45,829 nt of DNA from a virus: positions 1 through 45,829 of IMG/VR virus record IMGVR_UViG_3300045988_073964; one strand, 5' to 3'. The position numbers and the translations under genes were made by a program. Below are positions 5,533-38,500 of the stretch, piece after piece (the stretch's first letter is position 1; every line of letters begins with the position of its first letter). Under the pieces are notes generated by a model that was not told where the DNA came from, ran no database searches, and saw only the letters and a list, made by a program, of their open reading frames with translations.

Positions 5533-6482
5533 AAGGCAAACTGATTATGACGGTTGAGCAGGCGGCTGACCGTGTGGCGTGGGAACGTGTCCGCAATGGC
5601 GGCATTGGCGGCAGTGATATTGCCTGCATCATGGGATTGAATCCGTGGAAAAGTGCTTTTGCCCTCTATGCTGAAAAGCACGGAGATGTAGAAGCAGAGG
5701 ACCTTTCCGATAACGAGTATGTTTATTGGGGTACGGTTCTGGAGCAGGCTGTAGCTGACAGATTCTGTGAGCTGACCGGCAAGAAAGTCCGCAAGTGCGG
5801 CACGCTGCAAGATGAAAGCTATGAGTTCATGCTTGCGAACGTCGATAGATTAGTAGTAGGCGAAGATGCGGGACTTGAATGCAAGACCGCCAACGGCTTT
5901 AAGGCAAGCGAGTGGGACGGTGACAACCTTCCGGACTCCTATTATTGCCAGTGCCAATGGTATATGGCTATTACTGGCTGCGAGAAGTGGTACATCGCCT
6001 GCCTTATCGGCGGTAATCATTTTGTGTGGAAAGAAATTCCGCGCAATGATGAGTTTATTGCAGATATGAGAACACAAGCTATTGTGTTCTGGAATAATCT
6101 GCAAAACAACGTAGCGCCGGAAGTCGACGGCAGCGAAAGCACAACGCAAACCGTCGACAAAATTGTCGCTAGTGTTGTCGGCGCTGATGAAATCGCGCTC
6201 GGCACACAGGCCGCGCCGTTCATTGCTCGTTATCATGAGCTTGTCAAAACAGAAAAGCTCGTGAAAGAGCAGAAGCAGCAGTGCCAAAATGCACTCGCTT
6301 TAATGCTGAACGGTGCAAAGTGCGGCACATATAATAACTACCAAGTTATTAACACGCCAGTCAAAGGCCATGAAGGCATTGACCGCAAGAAACTGATGAG
6401 AGATATGCCGGACGTATACGAGAAGTATAAGACGGTAGGTAAAGACGGTTTTAGGTTTTCCATTAAGGAGGTAAAAGAATAA
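5529..6482 (+). CDS. YqaJ-like (lambda Exo family) recombination exonuclease
   Basis: GGSDIACIMGLNPWKSAFALY and the E..D..K core, immediately upstream of recT. Confidence 0.88.
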   Translation: MKGKLIMTVEQAADRVAWERVRNGGIGGSDIACIMGLNPWKSAFALYAEKHGDVEAEDLSDNEYVYWGTVLEQAVADRFCELTGKKVRKCGTLQDESYEFMLANVDRLVVGEDAGLECKTANGFKASEWDGDNLPDSYYCQCQWYMAITGCEKWYIACLIGGNHFVWKEIPRNDEFIADMRTQAIVFWNNLQNNVAPEVDGSESTTQTVDKIVASVVGADEIALGTQAAPFIARYHELVKTEKLVKEQKQQCQNALALMLNGAKCGTYNNYQVINTPVKGHEGIDRKKLMRDMPDVYEKYKTVGKDGFRFSIKEVKE

Positions 6483-14727: not shown

Positions 14728-15213
14728 ATGGCAGACGTATTTACATATAAGCAGGCAGAAGAATTCGTCGAACAGCTTGCTATCGCTCGTCGTTCCATTT
14801 CTGTTGCTGTTGATTCAGCTCGTTTACAGCAAAAAGCTGAACGCTTGGAGCTAGATTATAGGCTGCGTTACAAAGACCCCACGGCAAAATTAGTGATAAA
14901 CGATTTAACGCCGCTCGCCGTTGTGCGCTGCTTCCATGAAAATCAGCCGTTTATTGTTTACCAGCCTGAAAAATGGCTGAAGGTCATTCAAGAAGCGTTC
15001 AATCTTTTTCGCCAGCGATTCGGTGACGGGCCTTATATGATTATCAAGCATCGGTTTATACGCGGATGGTCGACAAAGCATATAATGGCCGTCGATGGCG
15101 TCTCGCTTCAAACATATTCGCTGCGGCGGCAGCAATTCCTTGCCGGACTTCTGGCGCTGGCTGCCCAGAACGGACTCATTAGAATTGACTCGTCGCTTCC
15201 AAAGGATAAATAA
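14728..15213 (+). CDS. Putative late-gene transcription regulator (sigma70 region-4-like / ArpU-RinA-like)
   Basis: It is the last gene of the early operon. C-terminal MIIKHRFIRGWSTKHIMAVDGVSLQTYSLRRQQFL looks like a region-4 HTH. Confidence 0.4.
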   Translation: MADVFTYKQAEEFVEQLAIARRSISVAVDSARLQQKAERLELDYRLRYKDPTAKLVINDLTPLAVVRCFHENQPFIVYQPEKWLKVIQEAFNLFRQRFGDGPYMIIKHRFIRGWSTKHIMAVDGVSLQTYSLRRQQFLAGLLALAAQNGLIRIDSSLPKDK

Positions 15214-15246
15214 AAAAGCCGGGGTTTCACCTCGGCTTTTTGTTTT
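15213..15246. terminator. Bidirectional terminator between the early operon and the inverted cassette
   Basis: A-run, then gccgggg/cctcggc stem, then T-run. Confidence 0.7.
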
Positions 15247-15255
15247 CGCTTCTCC

Positions 15256-15636
15256 TTAAAGTATCGGGCGGCTGTTTAACTCCGCTATTTTGTTTGCAAG
15301 CTCATCGCTCGCTATCCAGCGCCCCATCGGGGACTTTGCGTTTTTAACTTTCCTAACGGCATCAGCGACTAATTTATTATAAATCGCATCGGCCTGCCAA
15401 CGGTGCAACGGCGTGCGTTCTTTTAACGTGTTGCCGTTCCACTCAGCGGGCGGGTTCCAAAGCCGCTTGTAATTGTTCGGTAGCCCAATCCTTTGTTTTT
15501 TCCAGTAATTCAGCAGGGCAAGGCGAAAAACAACAATTTTCCAATTTAACAATTTGCGTCCGCGCTCATTGTTAAATTGAACATAAATTTTCTTTTGTTT
15601 TTTTATTTCGGCGTTCAAGCCGGAAAAGTTTTTCAT
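15256..15636 (-). CDS. Hypothetical basic protein (last gene of the inverted cassette)
   Basis: 126-aa ORF. No motif recognised. Confidence 0.6.
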   Translation of the reverse strand: MKNFSGLNAEIKKQKKIYVQFNNERGRKLLNWKIVVFRLALLNYWKKQRIGLPNNYKRLWNPPAEWNGNTLKERTPLHRWQADAIYNKLVADAVRKVKNAKSPMGRWIASDELANKIAELNSRPIL

Positions 15637-15656
15637 AATGTGCCTCCTTCAAGTTT

Positions 15657-15676
15657 AACCCGGCTTGCGCCGGGTT
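15657..15676. other. GC-rich hairpin aacccggc-ttgc-gccgggtt between cassette genes
   Basis: Read directly. The T-run follows only on the plus strand. Confidence 0.5.
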
Positions 15677-15685
15677 TTTCGCTTC

Positions 15686-15883
15686 TTACAGTTCGACCAC
15701 GTCCAGATATGCACGTTGCTGCTCTGAACCTTCGATGTAGGCACGGCAGCCTTGCGCGTCACGCTGATTCAGCACATCATCTTGGGTAAAGCCGTCGTAT
15801 TCGATAACCGGCAAGCCTGCGGCGTTGCTGAAAACGCTCGCGCCTTCCGGCAGCATGAAATAAACGCGGTCGCTCGCTTCGCT
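15686..15883 (-). other. In-frame continuation (65 codons) of the 15884..16195 ORF beyond its TAA
   Basis: 15883-15686+1 = 198 nt, in the same phase. It translates to SEASDRVYFMLPEGASVFSNAAGLPVIEYDGFTQDDVLNQRDAQGCRAYIEGSEQQRAYLDVVEL. There is no SD before the internal ATG at 15856. Confidence 0.5.
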
Positions 15884-16195
15884 TTAGGCAACGGGGGCGA
15901 TGGTGTAACTTTCGTTGTATCCGCGCTTCTGGTAGTCGCGCCAGCCGGGAATGAGAACGCGGGGCGCTTCTTCGTCGTAACCGATAGTTTCGTATTGGTC
16001 GGATTCTGCCAGATATACCATAATGGGGTAAAGCTTAACGGTTTCACCTTTGATAAGGTCGCCGCTTTCGGTGCAAGCGGTCGCTTCCCAATATTCGCCG
16101 TTCCAATCGCTTTCAAAAGCTGCGTAGCGGCGGCCGTCCTCGTCGGCTGCTACAAAAAGTGCGTTGTAAACGTTGTTTGTGATTTCCTTAAACAT
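15884..16195 (-). CDS. Acidic hypothetical protein (103 aa up to the TAA)
   Basis: AGGAG SD. 19 acidic against 9 basic residues, counted by hand. Confidence 0.6.
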   Translation of the reverse strand: MFKEITNNVYNALFVAADEDGRRYAAFESDWNGEYWEATACTESGDLIKGETVKLYPIMVYLAESDQYETIGYDEEAPRVLIPGWRDYQKRGYNESYTIAPVA

Positions 16196-16276
16196 AATGT
16201 AACTCCTAAAATTTCGCTTCTGCCGTTTATATTCGACGCTGGCGGCGGCATTCCTGCCAGCGTCAAGGGTTAATTC

Positions 16277-16432
16277 CTACAAAAGGCTGAATAGATGCAG
16301 CAAGCTTACGCTGTCCCAATAAACACACTGTTGGGCGTATGTTAGATTGTCAATGCCGCCTTTAGCGTGCCACAAGCAACGCAAGGCATTGGCAAGCTTT
16401 AAGTATTGATGTTTACGCTGCTTTTTCTTCAT
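16277..16432 (-). CDS. Small hypothetical protein (51 aa)
   Basis: ATGA overlap with the stop of 16429..16647. MKKKQRKHQYLKLANALRCLWHAKGGIDNLTYAQQCVYWDSVSLLHLFSLL. Confidence 0.35.
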   Translation of the reverse strand: MKKKQRKHQYLKLANALRCLWHAKGGIDNLTYAQQCVYWDSVSLLHLFSLL

Positions 16433-16647
16433 TTCGCTTCTATGCCCCTTTCGTCGCTGATTTCGTCCGGTGCTTCTTCTGCAATAAAAGCTTTCACCGC
16501 TTCCATATCTTCGCACCATTTGCCGTTTCCACAATAATATTGCGGGCCGCCGGGGTAAAGCTGCGTAAAGATTTTTACGTCTAGGCGCTTCCCGTGCTTC
16601 CACGCCGGGTGCTCGGGTGTCAATTTGTTTATAACGGCTATTTTCAT
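16429..16647 (-). CDS. Hypothetical protein (72 aa)
   Basis: ORF with an ATGA overlap to the upstream 59-aa gene. Confidence 0.6.
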   Translation of the reverse strand: MKIAVINKLTPEHPAWKHGKRLDVKIFTQLYPGGPQYYCGNGKWCEDMEAVKAFIAEEAPDEISDERGIEAK

Positions 16648-16823
16648 TTTTGGGGCTCCTTAATTTCTGCGGTCCATTCGTTCCGGCTTTTAAAGCCTGC
16701 GGCTTCCGCTACCATAGCGGCAATGATACGGCAAGTAATATCATGTTCCGCTTCATTCATCGCCGGTTGCTTCCGGTACGCTTCAATTTTCTGCAATAAA
16801 TTTAACGCTTCTTTACGTTCCAT
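16644..16823 (-). CDS. Hypothetical protein (59 aa, below the track threshold)
   Basis: AAGGAGG SD 8 nt before ATG 16823. MERKEALNLLQKIEAYRKQPAMNEAEHDITCRIIAAMVAEAAGFKSRNEWTAEIKEPQK. Confidence 0.55.
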   Translation of the reverse strand: MERKEALNLLQKIEAYRKQPAMNEAEHDITCRIIAAMVAEAAGFKSRNEWTAEIKEPQK

Positions 16824-16927
16824 TTTATATCCTCCTTTTAAATTTTCAAGGTTTATTGGCCTGCCTCGTCAGTACCCGGGCGGCCAGTCCCGGATATACG
16901 CCGCTTTGGCGGCGTTTCGGCTATTTA

Positions 16928-17872
16928 TTATTGCAGCAGCATTGTTTCCGGGCGGTATTTCAGAAATTCGCTGCCGTGCAGGTCGCGGATTTGGTCCATG
17001 GTCAAGGTTTTGCGGATTTTCTTCACCCACTCCCCGGCGTGCCAGTACCAGAGTTTTTTCTTGTTGGCCCATTTACAGCCAGCGGCCTTTAATGTGTCCT
17101 TGACGGCTTTTGTTTCGCCGCCTATCCATAACCAGCTACCACAAATTTCGATGTCAAGGCCTTGCAAGCCCATCAGCACGGCCAGAATCTCGGTAAATTC
17201 TGCTTGCTCTGCCAGAATTTCAGCGGCGGTTTTGTATGTGCCGTCCGCTTTTTTGTTGCGCTGCCACTCTTGGCGGCTCTCTGCTTCTGCAATTTCGGCG
17301 GCGCGTTTGTCGTGCGCTGCGGTCATTGCCTTAAAGTCGGCGGCCGTGCCGCCTTTGTCCGGGTGACATTGCATACAAGCTTTTTTAAACGCTTTCTTTA
17401 ACTCCTCTATAGTCTCGCAAGCTGCGAAAAGTTTTTGCCAGTCCATTTTTTTGTCCTCCTTTTTGGGTTCCGGGTTGTATTTTTGTTGTAGCTCCTCAAA
17501 TTTTTCTTTGGTGACGCGTGCCACGTATTGCACAAATTTTCTTGTGCTGTCCCACGTGTCATAGATAACGCCGCCAACAATTGCAACGGCGTGGCCAGCG
17601 GAAAACACGATGTAGTTAGCGTCCTTGTCACAGTGTTTGGAGTAGCTGTTGACGGTTTCGCGCTGGGCGGTCGTCATTGTAACACCCAGCTCGGACAACG
17701 CAACGCGGATATTAGCGATAGAGTTCCACGGTGCGCGGCTTTCGAATACTTTGGCTTCCAGCAAGCATTTAGCCTGCTGATAGGTTAACGGGGTTGCGGT
17801 GGAGATTGCTCTAATGATACAATCTCCGATGTTCTTTCCCTCGGGGTTAGCGTTGAATTTTTGATATGCCAT
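16928..17872 (-). CDS. Fusion protein: papain-like Cys/His peptidase-like domain, J domain (HPD), and a W-rich C-terminal domain
   Basis: NIGDCIIRAIS...SAGHAVAIVGGVIYDTWDS (Cys-His-Asp arrangement). KKAFKKACMQCHPDKGG (J-domain HPD). GSWLWIGGETKAVKDTLKAAGCKWANKKKLWYWH. Confidence 0.8.
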   Translation of the reverse strand: MAYQKFNANPEGKNIGDCIIRAISTATPLTYQQAKCLLEAKVFESRAPWNSIANIRVALSELGVTMTTAQRETVNSYSKHCDKDANYIVFSAGHAVAIVGGVIYDTWDSTRKFVQYVARVTKEKFEELQQKYNPEPKKEDKKMDWQKLFAACETIEELKKAFKKACMQCHPDKGGTAADFKAMTAAHDKRAAEIAEAESRQEWQRNKKADGTYKTAAEILAEQAEFTEILAVLMGLQGLDIEICGSWLWIGGETKAVKDTLKAAGCKWANKKKLWYWHAGEWVKKIRKTLTMDQIRDLHGSEFLKYRPETMLLQ

Positions 17873-17961
17873 AATAGATTACTCTCCTTTCAATCGCTGC
17901 GGCTAGGGCTTCGGACCTTCTGCCAGGCAGCTTTACGGCCCTTGATGGGCCGCCGTCAGCT

Positions 17962-18099
17962 TTAAAAAATCAGATATACGATGTTGGTCGCGTATTGGTA
18001 GATTTCTTGCTGTGTGTCGCTCATTGCCGGATAACGGTTCATGAGCTTTGCAACCTTCAGTAATTGTTTGATTCGCAGATTCTTAATTTTCATTTTCAT
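17962..18099 (-). CDS. Possible small protein (45 aa)
   Basis: AAGGAGAG SD. MKMKIKNLRIKQLLKVAKLMNRYPAMSDTQQEIYQYATNIVYLIF. Confidence 0.3.
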   Translation of the reverse strand: MKMKIKNLRIKQLLKVAKLMNRYPAMSDTQQEIYQYATNIVYLIF

Positions 18100-18105
18100 C
18101 TCTCC

Positions 18106-18219
18106 TTATAATGCTTTGATAACGTCCGTTAGATATTGCTCTAACGTGTAATTGGGGCTTGCGGCCTCGCAAATAAGGCTGCAAGCAATGTAGATGGTGA
18201 TGATGGTTAATTTAATCAT
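18106..18219 (-). CDS. Possible small hydrophobic protein (37 aa)
   Basis: SD 'aggagatg'. MIKLTIITIYIACSLICEAASPNYTLEQYLTDVIKAL. Confidence 0.3.
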   Translation of the reverse strand: MIKLTIITIYIACSLICEAASPNYTLEQYLTDVIKAL

Positions 18220-18233
18220 TGTTGCATCTCCTA

Positions 18234-18452
18234 TTAGTATTTTTGTACGCTTGCGCCGCCGTATTCATCTAGGACAATGCCATAAAAGTGACCTTTGATT
18301 TCCAACCTAATATTTTTGACGTGGCCCGGGAATTCCGGAAAGTCTACATTCATCAGGATTTCAATGTCTTTTCGGCACGGCTGAAAACCGTATTCGCGGA
18401 ACAATGCGAGTTGTACAGTTTTGATAATGCTTGCTTTTTCAATTTTGCTCAT
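18234..18452 (-). CDS. Hypothetical protein (72 aa), first gene of the inverted cassette
   Basis: AGGAGG SD 8 nt before ATG 18452. The upstream ATG at 18515 would lie upstream of the predicted -10 element. Confidence 0.6.
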   Translation of the reverse strand: MSKIEKASIIKTVQLALFREYGFQPCRKDIEILMNVDFPEFPGHVKNIRLEIKGHFYGIVLDEYGGASVQKY

Positions 18453-18503
18453 TTTGTTACCTCCTAAACTCTTTGCGAGTTGTTTTATTGCTTTGTTGTG
18501 TCT

Positions 18504-18532
18504 ATTGTAACTCATATTGGGTTACTTGTTAA
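18504..18532 (-). promoter_or_regulatory. Leftward promoter of the cassette operon
   Basis: On the minus strand: TTAACA, 17 nt, TACAAT. The spacer contains the box aactcatattgggt (18509..18522). Confidence 0.5.
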
Positions 18533-18930: not shown

Positions 18931-19073
18931 ATTTGTCCATAGCGGCACGCTAACAGCCGCAAATTAACCTTATTTTATTGTTTACCAAAAAATCACAATT
19001 TATCATTGATACAGTGCGTTTTTCTGACAATTATAATTATATATAAGATAATCATTTCAATCATGATTCGGTG

Positions 19074-19106
19074 GACTTAATCATAATACAGATTAAGTCT
19101 TTTTTA
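19074..19106 (+). terminator. Second rho-independent terminator in the AT-rich spacer
   Basis: gacttaatc/gattaagtc stem followed by TTTTTT. Confidence 0.6.
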
Positions 19107-19225
19107 TTTTTCCCTTATTTATATTATTACATTTGTTTATTTATTATTTTATGGTTAATTCTTAAGATGTTATTATATTGTTATTATACTAATTATGATT
19201 ATTATATTAAATGTAGGTGATTGTA

Positions 19226-19603
19226 ATGTTTAAGCCAAAGGTATTGACAATGGAGAGAGAGGGCAAGCGCGGCAGAGGACGACCGCCAAAAGCTGCAAGC
19301 GATGGTGTTATGACTCTAGCAGAGTGTGCAGCCCTATTAAAGCAGCAAGGCGCTGCCGTTGCAATAATGGCCGTGCAGGACCTACAAGCTTATTGGTTAC
19401 GTATCATGCTGGACGACAAGAGCAGCAACAAGGACAAGTTGACGGCTAGCAAGCTGTATGCAGAGTCTATAGGGGCATTTGACAAGCAAGAGGATAGCAA
19501 TAAGCGTCCTGCCGTGTATGTCTGGGGCGCTAACACTGAGGACGCAGCAGAGGCAGAGATAGCAAACGATAGTTTGGATAATGACGATAAAGAGCAAACA
19601 TAA
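19226..19603 (+). CDS. terS: Putative terminase small subunit
   Basis: AGGTGA SD. GRGRPPK is a DNA-binding-like N-terminus. DKLTASKLYAESIGAFDKQED resembles the Terminase_2 'RLKA.ELLGK..G.F' motif. It lies upstream of terL. Confidence 0.55.
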   Translation: MFKPKVLTMEREGKRGRGRPPKAASDGVMTLAECAALLKQQGAAVAIMAVQDLQAYWLRIMLDDKSSNKDKLTASKLYAESIGAFDKQEDSNKRPAVYVWGANTEDAAEAEIANDSLDNDDKEQT

Positions 19604-19911
19604 ATAGAGCTTTTAACATAATCGTTATTATCGGACGTAAAATAGTTATGCTGTTGCGGCTGATGAGCTGGCTTGTTCAGCCTACCAGCAGAGATGAGCC
19701 ACTCACCACGGTTCTTGTTGGTTGGCGCTGCTGCTGCTTTTGTTCCTGCTGGCGTTGGCGTTTTCGTTCGTCGGCGTGGTGATTGTGTTGTTTTGGCGTT
19801 GCCTTCGTTTTTCTGGCGCTTGGGTGGGGGGTGGGTCCCCCATTCCTGACGAGCCTTCGGGGGCCCCACGGTCCAAAAATTACTAAACCGAAATTTTTCA
19901 AGGGGGTAATC
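19604..19911 (+). other. 308-bp non-coding spacer, G+T-rich on the plus strand, between terS and terL (candidate pac / structured RNA)
   Basis: No ORF with an SD. GGCG(T/C)(T/G) occurs at 19724, 19751, 19757, 19773, 19795 and 19815. G/C-run hairpin at 19824..19843 and ggggcccc palindrome at 19860..19867. Confidence 0.5.
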
Positions 19912-21273
19912 ATGGAATACGAAAAAATCATAATGCCATATTCTCCCTTCCCAATATGGAGGGACGTATTGCACAAAGAGCTAGACGCTCATAGATTTGC
20001 GGTAGTCGTTGCACACCGTCGTTTTGGTAAAACGATAGGCATGGTGAATCACTTGATTAAGGATGCACTAAGCAGCGATAGAATAGCTCCTATGTTCGCA
20101 ATAGTCGGCCCTTGGGCGGCGCAGATGGAAAAGGTTGCATGGGGACCGCTCAAATACTATTCACACGTAATTGACGGTGTGAAGGTGAATGAGACTAAGC
20201 ACTATGTAGAGTTTCCGTCGAAGATAGAGGGCGCTCAGGGTGCGAGGATATATGTTATCGGTGCAAACAATCCTGATAATGCGCGTGGTACTTATTGGGA
20301 CGGCGTGGTACTGGATGAGTTTAGTGACATGAAGCCTTTCATGTGGTCTGAGATTATCCGTCCTGCGATAACGAATAAGAACCGTAAAGGGTATTGTTAC
20401 TTTATCGGCACTCCTAAAGGGCAGAATGCTTTTTACGAGATGTATAAGAAAGCCTGCTCCGATGAGCGCTGGTTTGCGTATCTGTCGGATGTAAAGACTA
20501 GTGGCGTTATTGACGCGAAGGAAATAGAGGACCTGCAAAAGGATATGTCCGATGTAGAGTTCCGTCAAGAGTATATGTGTGACTTCGGCGTTAAGGCTAT
20601 CAATGAGCTGTTCAGCCTAGAGGAATTGGACGCTGCTTTTGACAGAGGTCTGAAGGAAGAGGACGTTCCTTGGGATATGCCCGTTATTCAAGGCGTGGAT
20701 ATTGCGCGTTACGGCGACGATAGAAGCACGATATGGAAGCGTAAGGGCCTTATGGTGTATGCGCGGCCTAGAGTTTATAAGCATCTAAATACCATGGAGA
20801 TGGCCGATAAGATAGCTCAGGCTATGGGAGATAACGATGCAGACATGACTTTTATAGATGCTGGCAACATGGGTGCTGGCGCGATTGATAGACTTAGACA
20901 AATGGGATATACGGCACTGAGAGAGATACCGTTTCAGGCTAAAGCGCTTGACCATGACAGGTACGAGAATATCAGAGCCGAGATGTATTTCAAACTTAAA
21001 GAGTGGATTGCTGCCGGTGGTGCGCTGCCGAACGAAGAAGGCCTGCGCGATGAACTGGCGATAGTGCAATATAAATTCAGCAAGACAGGGCGTTTGATGC
21101 TGACTCCTAAAGATGAGATTAAAGAAAAGCTCGGACGTTCTCCTGACCTTGCGGACGGCCTAGTCTTGACCTTTGCCAGAAAAGTACCGCTACGGCAAAG
21201 AATATCAGACGATGGCTTGAAACCAAAAATTCCTATGTGTAACACGGAGTATTCAGTGATGGAGGCGATTTAA
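19912..21273 (+). CDS. terL: Terminase large subunit
   Basis: Walker A-like AHRRFGKTIG. DEFSDM (Walker B). C-terminal nuclease-like GVDIARYGDD. SD 'aaggggg' before ATG 19912. Confidence 0.88.
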   Translation: MEYEKIIMPYSPFPIWRDVLHKELDAHRFAVVVAHRRFGKTIGMVNHLIKDALSSDRIAPMFAIVGPWAAQMEKVAWGPLKYYSHVIDGVKVNETKHYVEFPSKIEGAQGARIYVIGANNPDNARGTYWDGVVLDEFSDMKPFMWSEIIRPAITNKNRKGYCYFIGTPKGQNAFYEMYKKACSDERWFAYLSDVKTSGVIDAKEIEDLQKDMSDVEFRQEYMCDFGVKAINELFSLEELDAAFDRGLKEEDVPWDMPVIQGVDIARYGDDRSTIWKRKGLMVYARPRVYKHLNTMEMADKIAQAMGDNDADMTFIDAGNMGAGAIDRLRQMGYTALREIPFQAKALDHDRYENIRAEMYFKLKEWIAAGGALPNEEGLRDELAIVQYKFSKTGRLMLTPKDEIKEKLGRSPDLADGLVLTFARKVPLRQRISDDGLKPKIPMCNTEYSVMEAI

Positions 21274-32554: not shown

Positions 32555-35500
32555 ATGGAACTAGCAGAATTAGATAAAGAATTTAATCAAAGAGTACAAG
32601 AAAAGCAAAATTGGTATAATGGCGGGTACGCAAGAGACGTACAGAGCAATTTAACACCGCCGGAAGTGTTTGGCTTTATTGAAGAGCAAAAAACGGCTCA
32701 GCAGGAAGCAGCAGAAACACGAGGTTTTGGCACAGCGATGCTGAACGGTGTAAAAGGCAGTGTTCGCGGACTTTTAGGCGCTGCTAAGGCATTGGTAGAT
32801 TCTAATATCGCGGAGCATGAAAGGGAAGACCCTAACTACCGTCCATACGGAGATTTCAGCGGCACTTTGCAGACTGGCATAGATTACTTACAGCGCGAAG
32901 AAGTGAAGGCTGACAGCGCTGCAGGGCAGCTCGTGTATGACTTGACGGAGGGCGCAGTGCAGCTTGCGATGCAGGCGGCAGTAACAGCCGCTACGGGCGG
33001 CACAGCTGGCGCTGTATATATGGGCGCTAATATTGCCGGCGACCAATATATAGAGCTACGTAAAGAGGGTGTTGACGCAGAGAGGGCTGCGCTAGCAGGC
33101 TTGATGAACGCTCCTTTTCAGGCCGCACTTGAAAAAATTGGTATGGGCAAAATCATGGCGAAGCTGCCAGCAGGCTCAGGATTAAAAAAGAAGCTGGGCG
33201 AAGTCTTAAAAGCTAGTCTTGAAGAAGGCGTTACCGAAGGCCTGCAAGAATTACCGGAACAGGTTACAAATATCTGGGCGAAGGACAAAAATGCCACGGC
33301 GGAAAGCATGGCGGCGAAATGGGGCGAGAACTGGGAGCAGAATGTCAAAGAAGCAGGGTATAGTGCGTTGCTTGGCGGCATTCTTGGCGGCAGCGCTAAG
33401 GGATTGCATATAATAGCTAATAGTGTTGGGCGTAAGGTTGGCGAAAAAGTAACCGAAGTAAAAAAAGAGCAGCTTGTAGCTGATGCAGAGCGCGTAGCTA
33501 AGAGCGGAGTGAACCCTGAATACGCCGCTGCGCTCATTGATGCTAATAGTCAAGGCGAGACTGTAACCGTGCAGGCTGCTGACCTGAACGCATTTAAACA
33601 GCAGACCAACGGTGCGAAGTTGATGGAAACGCTGGGCGTGACGGAAGAACAGATTGAGCAGGCGACCGAGAACGGGCAGGATATTGATATTAGCAGAGGA
33701 CGCTTTACTGCCGCTATGGTTGAACATAAGGGCCTGTATGAAGCGACTAAGGATAGCATGATTTTCGACATTGACGGCGACCTGTCTACAAATGCCGCAG
33801 AGAATTTCAAGACGCTGAAAGCTGATACGAAAGTATCGGATGAGCAGATGCAACAGTTGGATTTAGAGGTTAAGAATGTTGTTGATAGCGCGATTGCCGC
33901 AGGCATGAACAAGGCTCACGCCGAGAATTTGCAGCTCATGCTTGAAAGCAGGGCGATTATTGCTAGTCCTGAAAATCCTGCTGCGTGGCTGCAAAAAAAC
34001 AAACTGCGGTTTGAAAATGGTGGAAAGAAGCCACTTAAAAGCGGTTGGTTTAGCCAAAGCGGTAAGCTGAATACCGACAAATTTTTTACTACTCAAATTA
34101 CAGGTAATGAATTGGGTAGTTATCGTGATTTAAAAGATTTGCGTTCTAAAGCGATAAATTGGTATAGAACAAATTTGCAGGGGCAGAAAGTAAAAAATAG
34201 CGTATTAGGTGAAATTAGAATAGGCAAGGGTTTTTCTGAAAATGACGTTGGACTTACTGGCAGCGGCAGACGCAAAATGTCTTCTACCAGCGCTAAGGCT
34301 GAAAAACTGCTTGCTGTGCGTTACCTTAAAGAAATTATTGAGGGCGGCAATTTTGTAACTGAAGCTGCTGCGCATAAAGAAAAACATTCAGGAGAGAATT
34401 TTTATTATATTCATTCTCTACTGAATGTGAATGGCGAAAATCGTTATGTAGTTGTAACCGTGAGAGAATTAAACAATAAAGAGCTTGTTTATTACAATCA
34501 CAATGTGTTTACTGAAAATGAGTATAAAAAAACAGAGGACGCGCTTAGGCCCTCGGATTCTGCAATTTCAAATGCGGGCCAGTATCCTAAGCAACAATCC
34601 TCTTTTAAAGATAGTGTAACACAAAAAGCGGACGTTTACAAGTCGCAAACGATAATAAACGGCACACTAAAGGATAAAGGCATGATTTCTCCGATGGAAA
34701 ACGGAGACTATATTATCACTTTATTCAAGGACGCAGACGCAAGTACGGTTATCCACGAGACAGGTCATTACTTTGTCGATACAATGATTAACGAGGCTAT
34801 TGCAGACCCTAGTAATACTAGATTGGTTAAAGACGCAAAAATACTGTTAGAGTACGGCGGTATGACGCTGGAACAATGGAAGAGTTCTAGTCTTGAAGAA
34901 AAGCGCGCTGCCCACGAGAAACTTGCAGAAGGCTTTGAAACCTACATCATGGAGGGTAAAGCGCCTAGCGCTGGACTGCGCAAGGCCTTTCAACGATTTG
35001 CAAAATGGCTGACGGCTATTTACTCTAAAATTGCACGCAACGAAAATGCTGCGGACATCAACGACGATGTGCGTGGAGTATTCGACCGTATGCTAGCAAG
35101 TCAAGAAGAAATAGAGATGCAGGCTAAGTTAAACGGTATGTTTAACGAATTGCCGTCGGAACTTACTAGCAAGCTGCCGCCAGAAGCTAAAAATGCCTTG
35201 CTGGATAAAATAAGCAAGGCGAAGGATAAGGCTGTAGATATTCTCACAAGGGAGATGATGAAAAATTTCAACGCAGAGCGCAGGGCCGCCAAGGCTGCGT
35301 ATATTGCAGAAATTACGCCTGAGATTGAAGAGCTTATTCATCGCGATAAGGTTAATCAAGGCAGGGACTTATTGGCGTACCATTTCGGCGGGGAAAAGGA
35401 AAAGAACAATCCGTATTTTAAAGATGAGAACGGCAAAGCTCATGCTAACAAGCCTATTAAAGTACACAGAGATGCCAATCCATCTATCATTGCGCGTAAA

Positions 35501-38500
35501 TACCGCCACGCTATTGGCAGCGTCTTGCCCAACTACAACGACGTGCTGCAAGATACCAGAGCAGCTATCAATGACAGGCTGAATCCCATTATCGAAGATT
35601 TGAAAAATAGCATTGTTGAATACAACGAAAGTCTTAGAGACGCGTGGGCGCAGGGTGGTGCAGAAGGATACTGGACGCTTGAAGGCAAAAGCATAGACCC
35701 TACAATCATCAAAGACTATGTGAAAGCTAACGGCGGAAAGTACGATGATAACGTTAGGGCAAAACTTGAAAGAGACGGCTATGTGTTTCATCCGGCAGAC
35801 GAAGAAGTGTCGGGCGGCAACTGGTACAGGAATTATGTAGAGGAAAACGGTAAAAAGAAACTTTCAAACAAAGAACTCGAAAGAATTGCACGAGATATTT
35901 ATTCTGGCAATGATTATTATGAGTATGACCCCGAAGCAAAAATGTATGAGGGAAACCCAGAATACGAAGCAGAGATACAAAACAAAAAGGCCGAACTGGA
36001 TGAACTGTATAGACTCAAAGAGAAGCTTGAAAAAACGCCCGAAGGTGTAGACCTTGTGGAGATGTCCAAGCGCAGCGCTTTGTCCGATGAGCAACGTGTA
36101 CTGTTTGAAACCATTGCTGAGGAAGTCGGGTATTCCAGCGGTGATGAAATGGCGCAGGATATTTTAAGTAAACCGTCAGAACGTCAGATGGTGCGTAACT
36201 TTGTCAACGAAGCAGTACAGGCACGTTTTCCTGATATTTACGCAGAGCGTGCGCTGACGGAAGAGAAAGCGCGTGAAGCATTGTACAACGACGAAAGCGG
36301 CGAGGTTATTGCGCTTGAGCAGCAGCTTATCGAAAGCTACTTAGATGAAGCCGTTGGCCGTCAGGAGCGCAAGCAGGAACGCATGAATATGGCTAAAGCT
36401 ATGAAGCAAAGAGCAGAGGTTGCTGCTAAAAATATTATTCAAAGTATGACTGTTGATGATATTATTAAAGGCAATGGCAGGAAGTTTATGCTGGCTGAAC
36501 GCAGGGCAGCGGCGAACGCCGTTAAAGCTATCAAAGACGGTGATATGGATGCAGCTATGGAATATAAGCGCCAGCAGCTTATTAACCATGAGTTGTACCG
36601 TCAAGCTTTGCAAGTGCGCGGAAAAGTTAAAAGTGCGCAGCGTTTTATTCGGAAAATGGCCAACATGAAGAAAGAAAATTTCGGAACGCAGCAGCATTTC
36701 AACCAGATAGCAAGTCTTTTGGAGCGCATGGGTATTAAACGCAGAGGCTACGACAGAGCAGGAGATAATCAGTTCTTGCTAGCCTATGTCGAAGAAATGC
36801 GTAGCAAATGCGGTGAAATTGTCGATATTCCGGAGTTCGTGCTGAATGAAAGCAATGACATATCCAGTCCGTCGAATCTGCTTTTCTCGCAGTATCAGGA
36901 CGTTATCAACGCTATGAAGAATATTTATGCTATTGCCAAATATGACACGAGAATGAGCAAGATGAGCAAAGAGCAAACCTTTGCTGAAACTAAGCGCGAC
37001 ATTATGGAGCATCTGCGAGAGCTTGACGACGTATATACTCCGCGTATGGGCGGCGATAGGAAGAAAGGCTTTATTAAAGGCTTTACAGACAGCATAAAGG
37101 ACTATAGAAATGTTTTGCGAAACGCTGACAACTTCTACCTTGCTATGGATAATTGGACGGACGGATATTTCACGAAAAACTGGTACGACACACTCAGCCA
37201 TTGCGCGGATGCAGAAGCTACTATGACGTTGGAATATCAGGACAAATTAGCTACAGCCTTGAAGAAATGGGAGCCGGATAAAGCGACGGCAAAAGCGCAT
37301 GACGCTGATGTGTATTACGAAGAACTCGGAACCAGTACCGACAAAAATACACTTGTCACTATGCTTTGCAATTTGGGCAATGAGGGCAATAAGAATCGCT
37401 TGTGCAGCACGCCGCCAGAGGGAGCAAAAAACTCTAAGTTGTGGGTTAAGGAGTCAGCGCTTGTCTCTAAAGAGCAGGCTATCGAAATGACACACCAGAA
37501 CATTGTAGAGTTTTTGAGCAAATATTTGACTAAGGCTGATGTTGAATATGCGCAGGCGCGTATAGATGCAGCAAATGCCTACTATCCGCAAATCAGGGAT
37601 TTAAATATCCGCGCTAAAGGCTTTGCCCCACCGGCAGTAGATGCTACGCCGATGACGATGAAGCTTGCTGACGGAAGTGTGGTTTTGTTCAAAGGCGGCT
37701 ATTTCCCACTCGTGCGCGACAGCAGAATGGGCAGTGCGCCGAACGGACAGAACAGGCTCAGCGCTACGGATGAATATCCGGGCGCAGGTATTAGCACGAT
37801 GCGGACAGATGCTGCCAGCAGCAAGGGACGTATTGGCGGCAACTATCCGGTTAAATTAGACCGTGGCTGTGAGATTACGCCTATTATGGATACTATCCAT
37901 GATATTTGCTATCGTGAAGCTATGATGGACTTCCGCAAGATTTTGAACGATGCAGAGATTTTTGCAGAGCTTAAAACTAAGCTTGGTGAGCAGAATGTGC
38001 GTCTGCTGCGTGAACAACTGGAAGCGTGCGCTAATCCGTACAGCAACAAGCAGGCTGCGCAGGCCGAAAAAATATTCTCTAAGACAGCGGACATCTTGCG
38101 CAGGACGGCTACGAACGGCGCTATCATGTTAAACTTAAAGACCGCGGCGCAGAACTTCAGCAACATCTTGCTATACGGAAACAGCGTTGAAGGATTTACG
38201 CACGCAGATGCTTTCCGCGCTATGTCACGTGCGTTCAGCGTACAGGGCAGAGCTGATGTTGATGCTATCTGCCGCAAGAGCGCCTTTATGCGTGAGCGCA
38301 TGGAAACGCCAGACGTGGCCTTGAATGACATAAAGAACCGCAAGGATTTGAATGTTGTTGAACGCAACACGTTGAAGTACGGCGCTAGGCTGCTTGGCTA
38401 CACTGATATGCTGACAGCGAAGCCGGTATTCGCAGAGGCCTACATGAAGAAAATCAACGAAGGTGCAAGCGAACAGGCAGCAATAGACTTTGCTAACCGT

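What the first reader, a model, noticed from the sequence alone, without database searches (positions are those of the whole stretch)
16928..17872. Papain-like peptidase-like domain fused to a J domain, with an internal SD+ATG that could also yield a stand-alone J protein
- Residues 1-120 carry GDCIIRAIS ... GHAVAIVGGVIYDTWDS, a Cys...His...Asp arrangement typical of papain-fold peptidases or amidases.
- Residues from about 143 carry a J domain with the diagnostic HPD (CHPDKGG).
- The tail is a Trp-rich module (WLWIGGETK...KKKLWYWH) that I recognise from stand-alone phage J proteins.
- Exactly at the domain junction the DNA contains AAGGAGG (complement of 17456-17462) 9 nt upstream of the in-frame ATG at 17446.

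So either two genes were fused, or the locus produces both the fusion and the J-only protein. A J domain recruits host DnaK. Tethering it to a peptidase suggests chaperone-targeted proteolysis or deamidation. I do not know this architecture as characterised.
Basis: partly seen in the sequence, partly recalled or inferred. Interest (0 to 1): 0.72.

Follow-up and report, generated by a model that had tools for sequence, protein, structure and literature searches.

The report
Ribozyme-flanked phage peptidase-like J-domain gene
A gut prophage gene fuses a small papain-like enzyme domain to a DnaK-recruiting J-domain protein, keeps a working-looking second start site at the junction, and is bracketed by two self-cleaving ribozymes; all the parts are of known kinds, but this combination has not been described.

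Summary
ORF 16928-17872 (-) encodes 314 aa with three parts:
- a roughly 120-aa domain with invariant Cys18/His94/Asp105/Asp108; the AF2 model (pLDDT 95) best resembles papain-fold enzymes, though only weakly;
- a J domain with an invariant HPD motif;
- a Trp-rich C module that almost always follows this J domain in phages.

Syntenic phages (L042/L043) lack the N domain and start their J gene at the equivalent Met behind the same kind of RBS. The junction RBS is therefore the old J-gene start, now translated as linker. It is kept in every fusion lineage despite saturated synonymous sites. Codon 143 is always ATG or GTG. An independent fusion (P0022) keeps the same signal. Two products are likely but unproven.

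Both are conserved and show covariation. Distant J+C genes sit next to hammerhead, twister or pistol ribozymes.

Chaperone-targeted proteolysis remains speculation: the two modules are not neighbours elsewhere. Verdict: a new variant of known kinds, of moderate interest.

The parts
17904..17961 (-). Twister-P5 self-cleaving ribozyme. It starts directly after the stop of the upstream 45-aa ORF and ends 32 nt before the gene's ATG. Predicted cleavage is between U17935 and A17934.
   Evidence: Rfam RF02684 scores 40.3 bits against a gathering score of 37.6. The ribozyme sits at the same place in fusion lineages and in J-only L042/L043. P1 and P2 covary and the core is invariant. The cleavage site is inferred from the consensus U|AA step and was not tested.
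17882..17890 (-). Ribosome-binding site (AAAGGAGAG) of the full-length protein, upstream of the ATG at 17872.
   Evidence: Read from the sequence. Equivalent GAAAGGAGAG or AAGGAGG elements precede the start in all fusion lineages.
16928..17872 (-). Fusion ORF of 314 aa, with stop TAA at 16928-16930.
   Evidence: It matches phrog_15863 over its full length at E=1.8e-129. The frame is open in 38 of 40 IMG/VR loci and in 6 further lineages. dN/dS is 0.04-0.2 in the N, J and C domains.
17510..17872 (-). N-terminal minimal papain-like Cys-His-Asp domain, residues 1-121. Codons: C18 at 17819-17821, H94 at 17591-17593, D105 at 17558-17560, D108 at 17549-17551.
   Evidence: It matches phrog_3754 at E=4.7e-17. 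The family has more than 2732 clusters, mostly stand-alone proteins of about 138 aa. The AF2 model has pLDDT 95.3. The six best Foldseek PDB hits are all papain-fold enzymes at E=0.06-0.11. BFVD gives 21 phage proteins at E<1e-3.
17447..17509 (-). Helix plus Lys/Glu-rich linker, residues 122-142. This is former intergenic or RBS sequence that is now translated.
   Evidence: AF2 places a helix at residues 122-129. Linker residues vary between lineages. The stretch lies inside the 477-nt segment (17407-17883) that has no BLAST counterpart in L042/L043.
17455..17461 (-). Internal Shine-Dalgarno sequence AAGGAGG, encoded by Lys-Glu-Asp codons.
   Evidence: A GGAGG or GAGGAG core is kept 7-11 nt before the start in all fusion lineages. 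Synonymous resampling gives P=0.01-0.16 per lineage, and the motif uses the minor Glu codon GAG (27%). The surrounding RNA is unstructured, z=+0.93.
17444..17446 (-). In-frame internal start codon (Met143). It would give a 172-aa J+C protein.
   Evidence: The codon is ATG in 39 and GTG in 6 of 45 distinct fusion genes, and never a non-start codon. It is equivalent to the start of the stand-alone J gene in L042/L043.
17258..17446 (-). J domain, residues 143 to about 205, with HPD at 17357-17365.
   Evidence: Pfam DnaJ scores E=2.7e-5 and 24.6 bits, below the gathering score of 27.8. The family profile against PDB J domains gives E=1.7e-11. All 26 relatives hit PF00226. HPD is invariant.
16958..17209 (-). 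Trp-rich C-terminal module, residues 222-305 (IEICGSWLWIGGETK...KKKLWYWH...MDQIRDLHGS).
   Evidence: The module has 1879 representative clusters and almost always follows a J domain. The AF2 model has pLDDT 78 and an alpha/beta fold. There is no PDB fold match; the best E is 0.2. Five of 26 relatives hit DUF5710 weakly.
16855..16922 (-). Type II hammerhead self-cleaving ribozyme. It starts 6 nt after the stop codon and ends 31 nt before the next ATG (16823). Predicted cleavage is after A16897.
   Evidence: Rfam RF02276 scores 47.9 bits against a gathering score of 37. It is present in all related loci. The core is invariant. Stem I and the pseudoknot between loop I and the 3' tail covary in 15 of 15 sequences. 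The cleavage site is inferred from the consensus.
15256..18515 (-). Minus-strand accessory operon of small unknown genes that contains the cassette. It lies between the replication/recombination module and the terminase genes and ends at the bidirectional terminator 15213-15241.
   Evidence: ORFs are listed. Flanking genes have no PHROG function. Promoter-like sites at 18532-18504 (-) and the terminator are.

Best explanation
The locus is a ribozyme-delimited accessory gene of a temperate phage from the human gut.

Its ancestral form is a widespread phage class C J-domain protein: a J domain with HPD followed by a conserved Trp-rich C module. In this clade, a normally stand-alone phage gene for a minimal papain-like Cys-His-Asp domain was inserted between the upstream twister ribozyme and the J gene's ribosome-binding site, and it reads through into the J gene. 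The old RBS (AAGGAGG, 8 nt, ATG) now encodes part of a Lys/Glu-rich linker.

Expected behaviour:
1. The operon transcript is cut by the twister (5' side) and the hammerhead (3' side). This releases an mRNA of about 1.04 kb with a 5'-OH and a 2',3'-cyclic phosphate, and a hairpin close to each end.
2. Ribosomes start at both RBSs. They make the 314-aa fusion and a 172-aa J+C protein.
3. The J domain docks on ATP-bound host DnaK through HPD. The C module supplies target specificity. In the long form, the thiol-hydrolase-like domain is brought to DnaK or to its client.

Shown here: the anatomy, the origin of the fusion, purifying selection on each part, conservation of the RBS and start codon, and the authenticity of both ribozymes by covariation.

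Inferred: ribozyme cleavage in vivo, production of two proteins, DnaK binding, and any catalysis.
For: Architecture:
- Searches support the three parts.
- The triad and HPD are invariant in 45 distinct fusion genes.
- dN/dS is 0.04-0.2 in every domain, with dS about 1.

Origin of the fusion:
- L042/L043 are syntenic (86% identity upstream, 73% from the J domain onward).
- They lack the 477-nt segment, and their J gene starts at the Met143 equivalent behind AAAGGAGG.
- Stand-alone J+C is the common form.

Internal start:
- Eleven of 12 AAGGAGG motifs in the window precede an ATG at start-site spacing, and ten of those mark ordinary gene starts.
- The SD core is kept in all lineages while linker residues change.
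- Synonymous resampling gives P=0.01-0.16 per lineage.
- Codon 143 is only ATG or GTG.
- The site is unstructured.
- The independent fusion P0022 keeps AAGGAGG, 9 nt, ATG at the start of its J domain.

Ribozymes:
- Both score above the Rfam gathering scores.
- Both are conserved in related loci, and distant J+C loci also carry self-cleaving ribozymes.
- Both show covariation.
- The predicted processed ends fold into hairpins.

Precedents:
- Phage RB43 Rki is a J-domain protein that binds DnaK. Its gene is fused in frame to the neighbouring gene in RB16 (PMC3486835).
- Hammerheads flank single prophage genes (PMC3088659).
Against: - There are no expression or protein data.
- Lys/Glu linkers are purine-rich, so an SD-like string arises by chance in about 10-15% of synonymous resamples per lineage. 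The lineages are also not fully independent.
- The N domain's fold matches to solved papain-fold enzymes are individually non-significant (E=0.06-0.11, TM 0.42-0.52).
- No Pfam, NCBIfam or PDB sequence match exists for the N domain.
- I could not inspect model coordinates to confirm that C18, H94 and D105 are adjacent.
- The N-domain and J+C families are not neighbours elsewhere (0 of 36 distant stand-alone J+C loci). Functional coupling therefore rests on the fusion alone.
- Many truncated or deleted alleles exist, so the gene is dispensable.
- Only 9 of 37 distant J+C loci have a recognised ribozyme within 2 kb.
Confidence: 0.6

Rival explanations
1. The fusion is mechanistically neutral. 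Two independent accessory functions happen to sit on one ribozyme-delimited mRNA: a thiol hydrolase with its own target, and a DnaK-hijacking J protein. Loss of a stop codon joined them without creating a new joint activity. The conserved internal start exists because the J+C protein is still needed in its free form.
For: - The two families are not linked elsewhere. No N-domain motif lies within +/-4 kb of 36 distant stand-alone J+C genes, and the stand-alone N-domain locus L090 has no J gene or ribozyme.
- The linker is variable and charged.
- The internal RBS is at least as strong as the first one.
- The J+C module has picked up other unrelated N-terminal domains (P0022, P0182, P0190, P0278).
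Against: - The fusion has stayed open in all lineages examined, across saturated synonymous divergence, with no reversion to two genes.
- A clade-specific second Cys next to HPD (CxxCHPD) co-occurs with the N domain.
- Recurrent N-terminal captures by J+C fit the usual logic of class C J proteins, in which a variable domain gives the J domain its task.
Confidence: 0.35
2. The internal AAGGAGG-ATG is only a relic or a by-product of Lys/Glu codons. A single 314-aa protein is made.
For: - Purine-rich linkers give SD-like strings in 10-16% of synonymous resamples.
- Met to Val (ATG to GTG) is also a conservative amino-acid change.
Against: - In this genome a perfect AAGGAGG followed by ATG at 5-10 nt marks a real gene start in the 10 other cases.
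- The motif uses the minor GAG codon in every lineage, and P=0.01 in L084.
- The independent P0022 fusion keeps the same signal.
- The region is unstructured.
- From general knowledge, an exposed strong SD with an ATG at this spacing normally initiates translation in bacteria. Examples are T7 gene 4A/4B, ClpB and IF2.
Confidence: 0.3
3. The N domain is a cis-acting leader protease that cuts itself off at the linker to release the J+C protein, as papain-like leader proteases of RNA viruses do.
For: - It is an N-terminal papain-like domain followed by a flexible linker.
- Its nearest structural neighbours include C39 leader-peptide peptidases.
Against: - The family is normally a stand-alone protein of about 138 aa with nothing to release.
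- The linker sequence is not conserved and has no Gly-Gly or other conserved cleavage motif.
- The conserved internal start already provides a J-only product.
Confidence: 0.05
4. The N domain is not a peptidase. It could be another kind of thiol enzyme of the same fold (deamidase, deubiquitinase-like isopeptidase, acyltransferase, thioesterase) or a non-catalytic binding domain.
For: - The fold cannot discriminate chemistry. The hits span Josephin DUB, staphopain, C39, pseudomurein isopeptidase and tegument-like DUBs.
- One BFVD neighbour is named 'thioesterase domain-containing'.
- No characterised member exists. GenBank phages annotate it 'hypothetical', and a few 'peptidase'.
Against: - The invariant Cys/His/Asp set plus the invariant N-A-N-P upstream (a possible oxyanion-hole Asn) in more than 80 diverse members argues for catalysis rather than binding only.
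- This is a refinement of the best explanation rather than a contradiction of it.
Confidence: 0.4

Closest known systems
Rki (gene 057w) of T4-like phage RB43, the first characterised phage J-domain protein (Perrody et al. 2012, PMC3486835)
   Same: [quoted passage not shown]
- It is non-essential and acts on host DnaK.
- In RB16 and KP15 its gene is fused in frame with a neighbouring gene through loss of the stop codon.
   Different: - Rki's J domain is N-terminal and the fusion partner lies downstream. Here the partner is upstream and the old start site is retained.
- Rki comes from a lytic phage of Proteobacteria. This is a temperate gut phage.
- Rki has no peptidase-like domain and no ribozymes are reported for it.
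- Sequence relatedness of the C domains was not tested.
Stand-alone phage J + Trp-rich-module proteins (uncharacterised; about 160-185 aa; for example 'molecular chaperone' of Fusobacterium phage Fnu1 and Enterococcus phage Efs 1-1-1)
   Same: Residues 143-314 belong to this family, at 27-61% identity to the aligned stand-alone members and 87% to the fragment P0007. The shared invariant residues are HPD, G..W.W..G.T, K..W and I-R..GS.
   Different: These proteins lack the N-terminal papain-like domain. The family has no described function.
phrog_3754 family of small phage proteins (Bacillus Tsamsa-like phages, Geobacillus GBK2, Butyrivibrio Ceridwen; annotated hypothetical or 'putative peptidase')
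   Same: Residues 1-121 match the family profile (E=4.7e-17) and share its invariant N-A-N-P, D-C, R, H and D-T-W-D-S positions.
   Different: Family members are stand-alone proteins of about 138 aa with a conserved C-terminal GCIGNYW tail. The fusion clade is a divergent branch (27-38% identity) whose tail is replaced by a strand, a helix and the linker.
Minimal papain-fold enzymes with an N-terminal catalytic Cys: C39 bacteriocin-leader peptidase domain (ComA 5xe8, PCAT1 8vpb), Josephin deubiquitinases (6pgv), staphopain (1y4h)
   Same: - The residue order is the same: Cys at the start of the first long helix, then His at the start of a strand, then Asp after the next strand.
- The size is similar, and these are the top structural neighbours.
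   Different: - There is no sequence-level relationship.
- Foldseek E-values are only 0.06-0.3 and TM-scores 0.42-0.52.
- Substrate and chemistry are unknown.
Ribozyme-flanked genes in prophages (Perreault et al. 2011, PMC3088659) and 'ribozyme-associated genes' (Weinberg et al. 2015, as summarised in PMC6765202 and PMC4604425)
   Same: Self-cleaving ribozymes on the coding strand directly flank a single prophage gene, which implies processing of a polycistronic RNA into a single-gene mRNA. Different ribozyme classes occupy the same gene neighbourhood.
   Different: - Here the bracket is a mixed pair (twister-P5 on the 5' side, hammerhead II on the 3' side).
- The bracketed gene is a J-domain protein.
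- I could not check whether J-domain genes are on the published list of ribozyme-associated genes. No held paper links the two.
In-frame nested genes with an internal start (T7 gene 4A/4B, E. coli ClpB and IF2, lambda C/Nu3); cited from general knowledge
   Same: An SD and start codon lie inside a longer ORF in the same frame. This gives a full-length protein and an N-terminally shortened one that share a C-terminal part.
   Different: Those cases are proven experimentally. Here the internal start is demonstrably the ancestral gene start left in place by a fusion, and its use is inferred.

Membership tests
J-domain proteins (Pfam PF00226 DnaJ; class C / type III) | An invariant His-Pro-Asp tripeptide between helices II and III | tested here: met
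   HPD is at residues 170-172. It is invariant in 26 relatives and in 45 fusion genes.
J-domain proteins (Pfam PF00226 DnaJ; class C / type III) | Significant sequence match to the J-domain model or to solved J domains | tested here: met
   The window protein alone scores 24.6 bits, below the Pfam gathering score of 27.8. The family profile hits the DNAJA1 J domain at E=1.7e-11 and 75 further PDB sequences at E<=0.01, almost all J-domain proteins. All 26 relatives hit PF00226, best E=5.9e-11.
J-domain proteins (Pfam PF00226 DnaJ; class C / type III) | Stimulates the ATPase of its partner Hsp70/DnaK in an HPD-dependent way | not testable with these tools
   This needs a biochemical assay with the host DnaK and an H170Q control.
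Papain-like (clan CA type) cysteine peptidase fold | A catalytic Cys at the N-terminus of a helix, followed in sequence by His at a beta-strand and then Asp/Asn, all conserved | tested here: met
   C18 starts helix 18-26, H94 starts strand 94-99, and D105 ends strand 102-105 in the AF2 model. C18, H94 and D105 are invariant across 87 family members and D108 is nearly so. All four are invariant in 45 fusion genes.
Papain-like (clan CA type) cysteine peptidase fold | Significant structural similarity to solved members | tested here: inconclusive
   The six best PDB matches are all papain-fold enzymes: Josephin-2, staphopain (two entries), ComA C39, PeiR and a tegument-like DUB. Their E-values are 0.06-0.11 and TMq 0.36-0.52, and no hit reaches E<=1e-3. 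More distant BFVD hits include C39, Josephin and OTU proteins.
Named peptidase families (Pfam Peptidase_C39, Josephin, NlpC/P60, CHAP and others) | A sequence match to the family model | tested here: not met
   There is no Pfam hit at E<=1 for the window domain, and no peptidase family for any of 16 members. NCBIfam gives none. PDB sequence and profile searches give none.
PHROG families phrog_15863 (full-length fusion) and phrog_3754 (N domain) | A profile match over the full model | tested here: met
   phrog_15863 matches at E=1.8e-129 over 1-312 of 312 positions. phrog_3754 matches at E=4.7e-17 over 8-143 of 145 positions. Both are annotated 'unknown function'.
Twister ribozyme, type P5 (Rfam RF02684) | A score at or above the curated gathering score with the conserved core nucleotides | tested here: met
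   The score is 40.3 bits against 37.6, over the full model 1-58. The core GA...G...GUAA.GC...GGUC..AA.CCC is kept. Related loci score 39.8-53.2 bits.
Twister ribozyme, type P5 (Rfam RF02684) | Helices supported by compensatory changes | tested here: met
   The P1 hairpin takes four forms: CGGCCC/GGGCCG, CAAGGG/CCCTTG, CGGCGGG/CCCGCCG and CCGACC/GGTCGG. P2 takes two forms: AGCU/AGCU and CGCA/UGCG.
Twister ribozyme, type P5 (Rfam RF02684) | Self-cleavage | not testable with these tools
   This needs an in vitro transcription and cleavage assay.
Hammerhead ribozyme, type II (Rfam RF02276) | A score at or above the gathering score with an intact catalytic core (CUGANGA, GAAA, cleavage triplet) | tested here: met
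   The score is 47.9 bits against 37. CUGACGA, CGAAAC and GUA are present. The core is invariant in 15 aligned representatives and present in all 23 unique variants collected.
Hammerhead ribozyme, type II (Rfam RF02276) | The pseudoknot between loop I and the 3' tail that is typical of type II, and stems supported by covariation | tested here: met
   The tail 4-mers GGCC, GACC, GGGC, GGAC and GGCG each have their complement in loop I in 15 of 15 sequences. Stem I takes at least 5 compensated forms.
In-frame internal translation initiation (nested gene) | An SD 5-10 nt before an in-frame start codon, conserved beyond what the protein sequence requires | tested here: met
   The spacing is 8 nt. 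The signal is conserved in 7 lineages with variable linker residues. Resampling gives P=0.01-0.16 per lineage. The start is always ATG or GTG. The strength of this evidence is modest.
In-frame internal translation initiation (nested gene) | Two protein products observed | not testable with these tools
   This needs a western blot, N-terminal proteomics, or ribosome profiling of initiation sites.
DUF5710 (Pfam PF18974), considered for the C module | A match to the family model at the gathering score | tested here: not met
   The window scores E=0.1 and 12.7 bits against a gathering score of 26.5. Five of 26 relatives hit weakly, best E=0.0013. This is a lead only.

The most novel reading that the evidence does not exclude
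The twister-ORF-hammerhead cassette is a self-excising expression unit. The two ribozymes release an mRNA with 5'-OH and 2',3'-cyclic-phosphate ends. That mRNA is unusually stable, or is even circularised by a host RtcB-type ligase. Two proteins are made from it in a fixed ratio. The long one tethers a new type of thiol hydrolase to host DnaK, so that it cleaves or modifies DnaK itself or a DnaK-bound client such as a defence or stress-response factor. The short J+C form competes for, or primes, the same site. On this reading J-domain genes would be a principal 'ribozyme-associated gene', and the long-unexplained link between self-cleaving ribozymes and particular phage genes would gain a concrete, testable model.
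Probability: 0.1. Interest if true: 0.85.

Novelty: new variant of a known kind. Interest (0 to 1): 0.55.

Why it matters
- **J-domain proteins in phages.** Only one phage J-domain protein (Rki) has been studied experimentally. The J+C family seen here has about 1,900 sequence clusters and no known role. The papain-like N-domain family has more than 2,700 clusters and is equally unstudied. A natural fusion of the two gives a handle on both, because C18A and H170Q mutants of one polypeptide can test whether a hydrolase is being aimed at the DnaK system.
- **How phage domain fusions arise.** The locus is a clean example. An upstream gene reads through the downstream gene's ribosome-binding site, and that site survives as a linker and probably as a second start.
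- **Ribozyme biology.** Why twister, hammerhead and pistol ribozymes cluster around particular phage genes has been an open question since 2011-2015 (PMC3088659, PMC6765202). Here a single, well-defined gene is bracketed by two classes. Its relatives sit next to three classes. This is a compact system for testing whether the ribozymes insulate, stabilise or circularise the mRNA.

Tried and rejected
- **Natural J-only gene at high identity.** P0007 (172 aa, 87% identity) looked like one. Its gene starts at nt 14 of a 1152-nt contig, so it is a truncation artefact.
- **Stop codon at the junction in homologues.** None was found. All 45 distinct fusion genes are open.
- **N-domain gene next to stand-alone J genes.** No motif lies within +/-4 kb in 36 distant stand-alone J+C loci.
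- **Named family for the N domain.** Pfam, NCBIfam, PADLOC and PDB sequence and profile searches all gave nothing. The NprR/TPR hits at E=0.17-0.68 are noise.
- **Fold of the C module.** Foldseek against PDB gave only weak matches at E>=0.2, led by trehalose-phosphatase entries. I rejected them as meaningless.
- **Weak hits on the full protein.**
  - The cytochrome c Pfam hits come from the CMQCH string overlapping HPD. The protein is cytoplasmic with no signal peptide, so I rejected them.
  - The PADLOC PtuB hit (E=1.4e-4, residues 133-202) falls on the charged linker and J helix. I rejected it.
- **P0298.** This 1096-aa protein gave 15 matched stretches to the C module. It is a low-complexity repeat protein and the match is spurious.
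- **Close relatives among GenBank phages.** Megablast of 15 kb found none. tblastn gave only distant partial hits.
- **Sub-threshold ribozymes beside 8 distant J genes with 85-200-nt gaps.** None was found at E<=0.05.
- **Host.** Two GTDB bins disagree: a Bacilli MAG and Phascolarctobacterium succinatutens CAG:287. The question is unresolved.
- **Literature.**
  - Barriot 2020, Roth 2014 and Weinberg 2015 are not held.
  - I could therefore not check published lists of phage J-protein architectures or of ribozyme-associated genes.
Full report
**1. The observation**

It is 8 nt upstream of the in-frame ATG at 17446.

This is more than chance. The window has 12 perfect AAGGAGG motifs against 4.2 +/- 1.9 in shuffles. 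Eleven are followed by an ATG at 5-10 nt. Ten of those open ordinary genes with at most 21 open codons upstream. Only this one sits 144 codons inside an ORF.

**2. The three protein parts**

*(a) N domain, residues 1 to about 121.*
- They match phrog_3754, of unknown function, at E=4.7e-17.
- A profile of the domain finds more than 2,732 protein clusters, nearly all stand-alone proteins of about 138 aa with no Pfam domain.
- The family occurs in cultured Firmicute phages (Bacillus Tsamsa-like, Geobacillus GBK2, Butyrivibrio Ceridwen). Those records annotate it 'hypothetical', occasionally 'peptidase'.
- N7, N9, P10, D17, C18, R21, H94, D105 and W107 are invariant in 87 sequences. D108 and S109 are nearly invariant.
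- No Pfam, NCBIfam, PADLOC or PDB sequence relative exists.
- AlphaFold2 with this alignment gives a confident model (pLDDT 95.3, pTM 0.90). C18 is at the N-terminus of the first long helix, H94 at the start of a strand, and D105 at the end of the next strand.
- Foldseek against the PDB has no hit below E=1e-3. The six best are nevertheless all papain-fold thiol enzymes: Josephin-2, staphopain (two entries), the ComA C39 domain, pseudomurein isopeptidase PeiR, and a tegument-like DUB (E=0.06-0.11, TMq 0.36-0.52).
- Against BFVD, 21 uncharacterised phage proteins match at E<1e-3. C39, Josephin and OTU proteins appear further down the list.
- Conclusion: a minimal papain-like Cys-His-Asp fold is well supported. 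Membership of any named peptidase family is not, and the chemistry is open.

*(b) J domain, residues 143 to about 205.*
- The single sequence is just below Pfam's gathering score (24.6 against 27.8 bits).
- The family profile hits solved J domains at E=1.7e-11.
- All 26 relatives hit PF00226.
- HPD (residues 170-172) is invariant.

*(c) C module, residues about 222-305.*
- It has 1,879 representative clusters. In nearly all of them it sits directly behind a J domain in proteins of 155-185 aa.
- Its model is alpha/beta with pLDDT 78 and has no solved structural neighbour.
- Weak DUF5710 hits are only a lead.

**3. Is it a fusion, and how did it arise?**

The full-length architecture is already a PHROG family (phrog_15863, E=1.8e-129).

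It is found in 38 intact copies among 40 closely related IMG/VR contigs. It is also found in more divergent lineages: L082, L083, L084, L086, L087 and L088, with overall protein identity to the window down to 60% and N-domain identity down to 44%.

All three parts are under purifying selection (dN/dS 0.04-0.2), with synonymous sites near saturation. The triad and HPD are invariant in 45 distinct genes. The open frame is therefore not an assembly error.

No homologue has a stop codon at the junction. Instead, two syntenic phages (L042, L043) share the upstream region (86% identity to 18108-17884) and everything from the J domain onward (73% to 17406-16660). They lack the intervening 477 nt. Their J gene starts at the Met equivalent to Met143, 9 nt after AAAGGAGG.

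Their J+C protein is more distant (56%) than that of any fusion, and J-only is by far the commoner form. The N-domain cassette was therefore most likely inserted ahead of the J gene. The old ribosome-binding site became the Lys/Glu linker.

The apparent stand-alone 172-aa protein P0007 is a truncated contig.

A second, unrelated N-terminal domain has been captured in the same way in P0022/P0182/P0190. Its DNA also retains AAGGAGG, 9 nt, ATG at the start of the J domain.

**4. Is the internal start used?**

This cannot be shown here, but four lines of evidence point the same way.
- In this genome the signal is otherwise specific for real starts.
- The GGAGG/GAGGAG core is kept 7-11 nt from the start in seven lineages while the linker residues change (KKEDKK, KKEEKK, NKEERKT, EKEEEKK, NERGEQK). 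It relies on GAG, the minor Glu codon (27%). Synonymous resampling reproduces an equally good SD in only 1-16% of trials per lineage.
- Codon 143 is ATG in 39 and GTG in 6 distinct genes, and never a non-start codon.
- The surrounding RNA is A-rich and no more structured than shuffles (z=+0.93).

I rate two products at about 0.6.

**5.

An Rfam scan of the whole window returns exactly two hits. Both are on the minus strand and both touch this gene.
- A twister-P5 ribozyme lies at 17904-17961. It starts right after the stop of the upstream 45-aa ORF and ends 32 nt before the ATG.
- A type II hammerhead lies at 16855-16922. It starts 6 nt after the stop codon.

The pair is present in every fusion lineage with enough flank, and also around the J-only gene of L042/L043.

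Both are authentic by covariation.
- The hammerhead core is invariant in 15 aligned representatives and is present in all 23 unique variants collected. Stem I takes at least five compensated forms.
- The type II pseudoknot between loop I and the 3' tail is complementary in 15 of 15 sequences, through five different 4-mer pairs.
- Twister P1 and P2 show full compensatory replacements.

Among 37 more distant stand-alone J+C loci, nine have a self-cleaving ribozyme on the same strand.
- A pistol lies directly upstream in L059.
- A hammerhead lies directly upstream in L044 and L068.
- A hammerhead lies 240-400 nt downstream in L047 and L069.
- A twister lies 1.1-1.9 kb downstream in L076, L077, L080 and L081.

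The rest have none, even at relaxed thresholds.

From the consensus cleavage sites (an inference), the processed mRNA would run from A17934 to A16897. It would have a stem-loop 3 nt from the 5'-OH end and a -13 kcal/mol hairpin at the 3' end.

Ribozymes flanking single prophage genes have been described, and their purpose is still unknown (PMC3088659; PMC6765202; PMC4604425).

**6. Context**

The window is a temperate siphovirus-like genome. It carries an integrase (471-1571), a repressor-like HTH protein, RecE/RecT, a DnaD-like replisome organiser, a methyltransferase and a large terminase subunit (19783-21273).

The gene lies in a minus-strand cassette of small unknown genes (18515 to 15256). 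The cassette is transcribed against the rest of the genome and ends at a bidirectional terminator (15213-15241).

Many truncated or deleted alleles of the gene circulate, so it is an accessory gene.

The host is unresolved: a Bacilli MAG or Phascolarctobacterium, both human-gut sources.

**7. Mechanism**

The best-supported reading is a ribozyme-insulated gene that makes a DnaK-directed class C J protein in two forms, the longer one carrying a thiol-hydrolase-like domain.
- DnaK engagement follows from the established role of HPD J domains and from the Rki precedent (PMC3486835).
- That the hydrolase acts on DnaK or on its clients is an attractive but untested inference.
- The two families are not otherwise linked, and the retained internal start suggests the free J+C form is still required.
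- A neutral fusion of two independent functions is therefore a serious rival.

**8. Verdict**

The parts are of known kinds: a phage J-domain protein, a papain-like fold, an in-frame internal start, and ribozyme-flanked prophage genes. Their combination appears undescribed. The novelty class is 'new variant of a known kind' and the interest score is 0.55.

Noticed in passing
window 17904-17961 (-) and 16855-16922 (-): A twister-P5 ribozyme and a type II hammerhead ribozyme bracket the fusion gene. They are the only two Rfam gathering-score hits in the 45.8-kb window. Both are conserved and covary in related loci.
   Followed up: yes
L059 3899-3963; L044 3903-3970; L068 3915-3979; L047 1226-1288; L069 4722-4786; L076, L077, L080 and L081 at about 5577-6465: Distant stand-alone J+C genes sit next to self-cleaving ribozymes of three classes (pistol, hammerhead II, twister-P5), always on the coding strand. 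This suggests the J+C family is a recurrent 'ribozyme-associated gene'.
   Followed up: partly
window 16928-17872 (-); proteins P0008-P0010, P0018, P0040-P0050, P0172; loci L014, L040, L045: An unusual number of truncated or deleted alleles exists, with at least 14 different breakpoints. All share the same N-terminus and then diverge. Examples: an in-frame deletion joining DTWDS to KKKLWYWH (P0041), a join to the downstream 72-aa gene (P0047), and a join of the upstream 93-aa gene to the C module (P0172/L045). The region seems prone to deletion, or the gene is often lost.
   Followed up: partly
window 17357-17380 (-), residues 165-172: The string C-M-Q-C-H-P-D forms a CxxCH motif that overlaps HPD. 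The second Cys (C168) is present in the fusion proteins inspected (the window and P0002-P0006) and is Leu in most stand-alone J+C relatives. This explains the spurious cytochrome c Pfam hits. Its significance is unknown.
   Followed up: no
L007, L013, L022, L024, L033, L038 (codon equivalent to window 17444-17446): The internal start codon is GTG (Val) instead of ATG in six loci. They fall into two sequence groups, which may mean two independent ATG-to-GTG changes that keep start potential.
   Followed up: partly
P0022/P0182/P0190 (L094 1636-2985), P0278, P0296, P0318: The J+C module has captured other, unrelated N-terminal domains of 100-290 aa through Lys/Glu/Gln-rich linkers. P0296 and P0318 have H-T-D in place of HPD.
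   Followed up: partly
window 15213-15241: A strong hairpin of 13 pairs, flanked by an A run and a T run, looks like a bidirectional terminator. It lies where the plus-strand replication module and the minus-strand accessory operon converge.
   Followed up: no
window 15540-15624 (-): A sub-threshold match to TD-2 RNA (31 bits against a gathering score of 48.7, E=0.081) overlaps the start of the 126-aa ORF. It is probably chance.
   Followed up: no
window 19000-19230: An AT-rich intergenic stretch between the HTH-like gene and the small-terminase-like ORF is crowded with promoter-like hexamer pairs on both strands and has a terminator-like hairpin at 19073-19100.
   Followed up: no
L048, L052, L057, L058, L060, L061, L063-L068, L071, L073, L074, L078, L079 (about 500-1700, - strand): A 'gut-2 RNA' (RF02990, 47-49 bits) recurs about 2.3-3.5 kb upstream of the J+C gene, on the opposite strand, in one group of gut phages.
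   Followed up: no
window 32555-39196 (+): A very long ORF of 2213 aa lies in the tail region. It was not examined.
   Followed up: no
L082 and L083: The only GTDB genome hits assign near-identical prophage contigs to different taxa: a Bacilli MAG and Phascolarctobacterium succinatutens CAG:287 (an 84.5-kb contig). At least one assignment is probably a binning artefact, and the host remains open.
   Followed up: no
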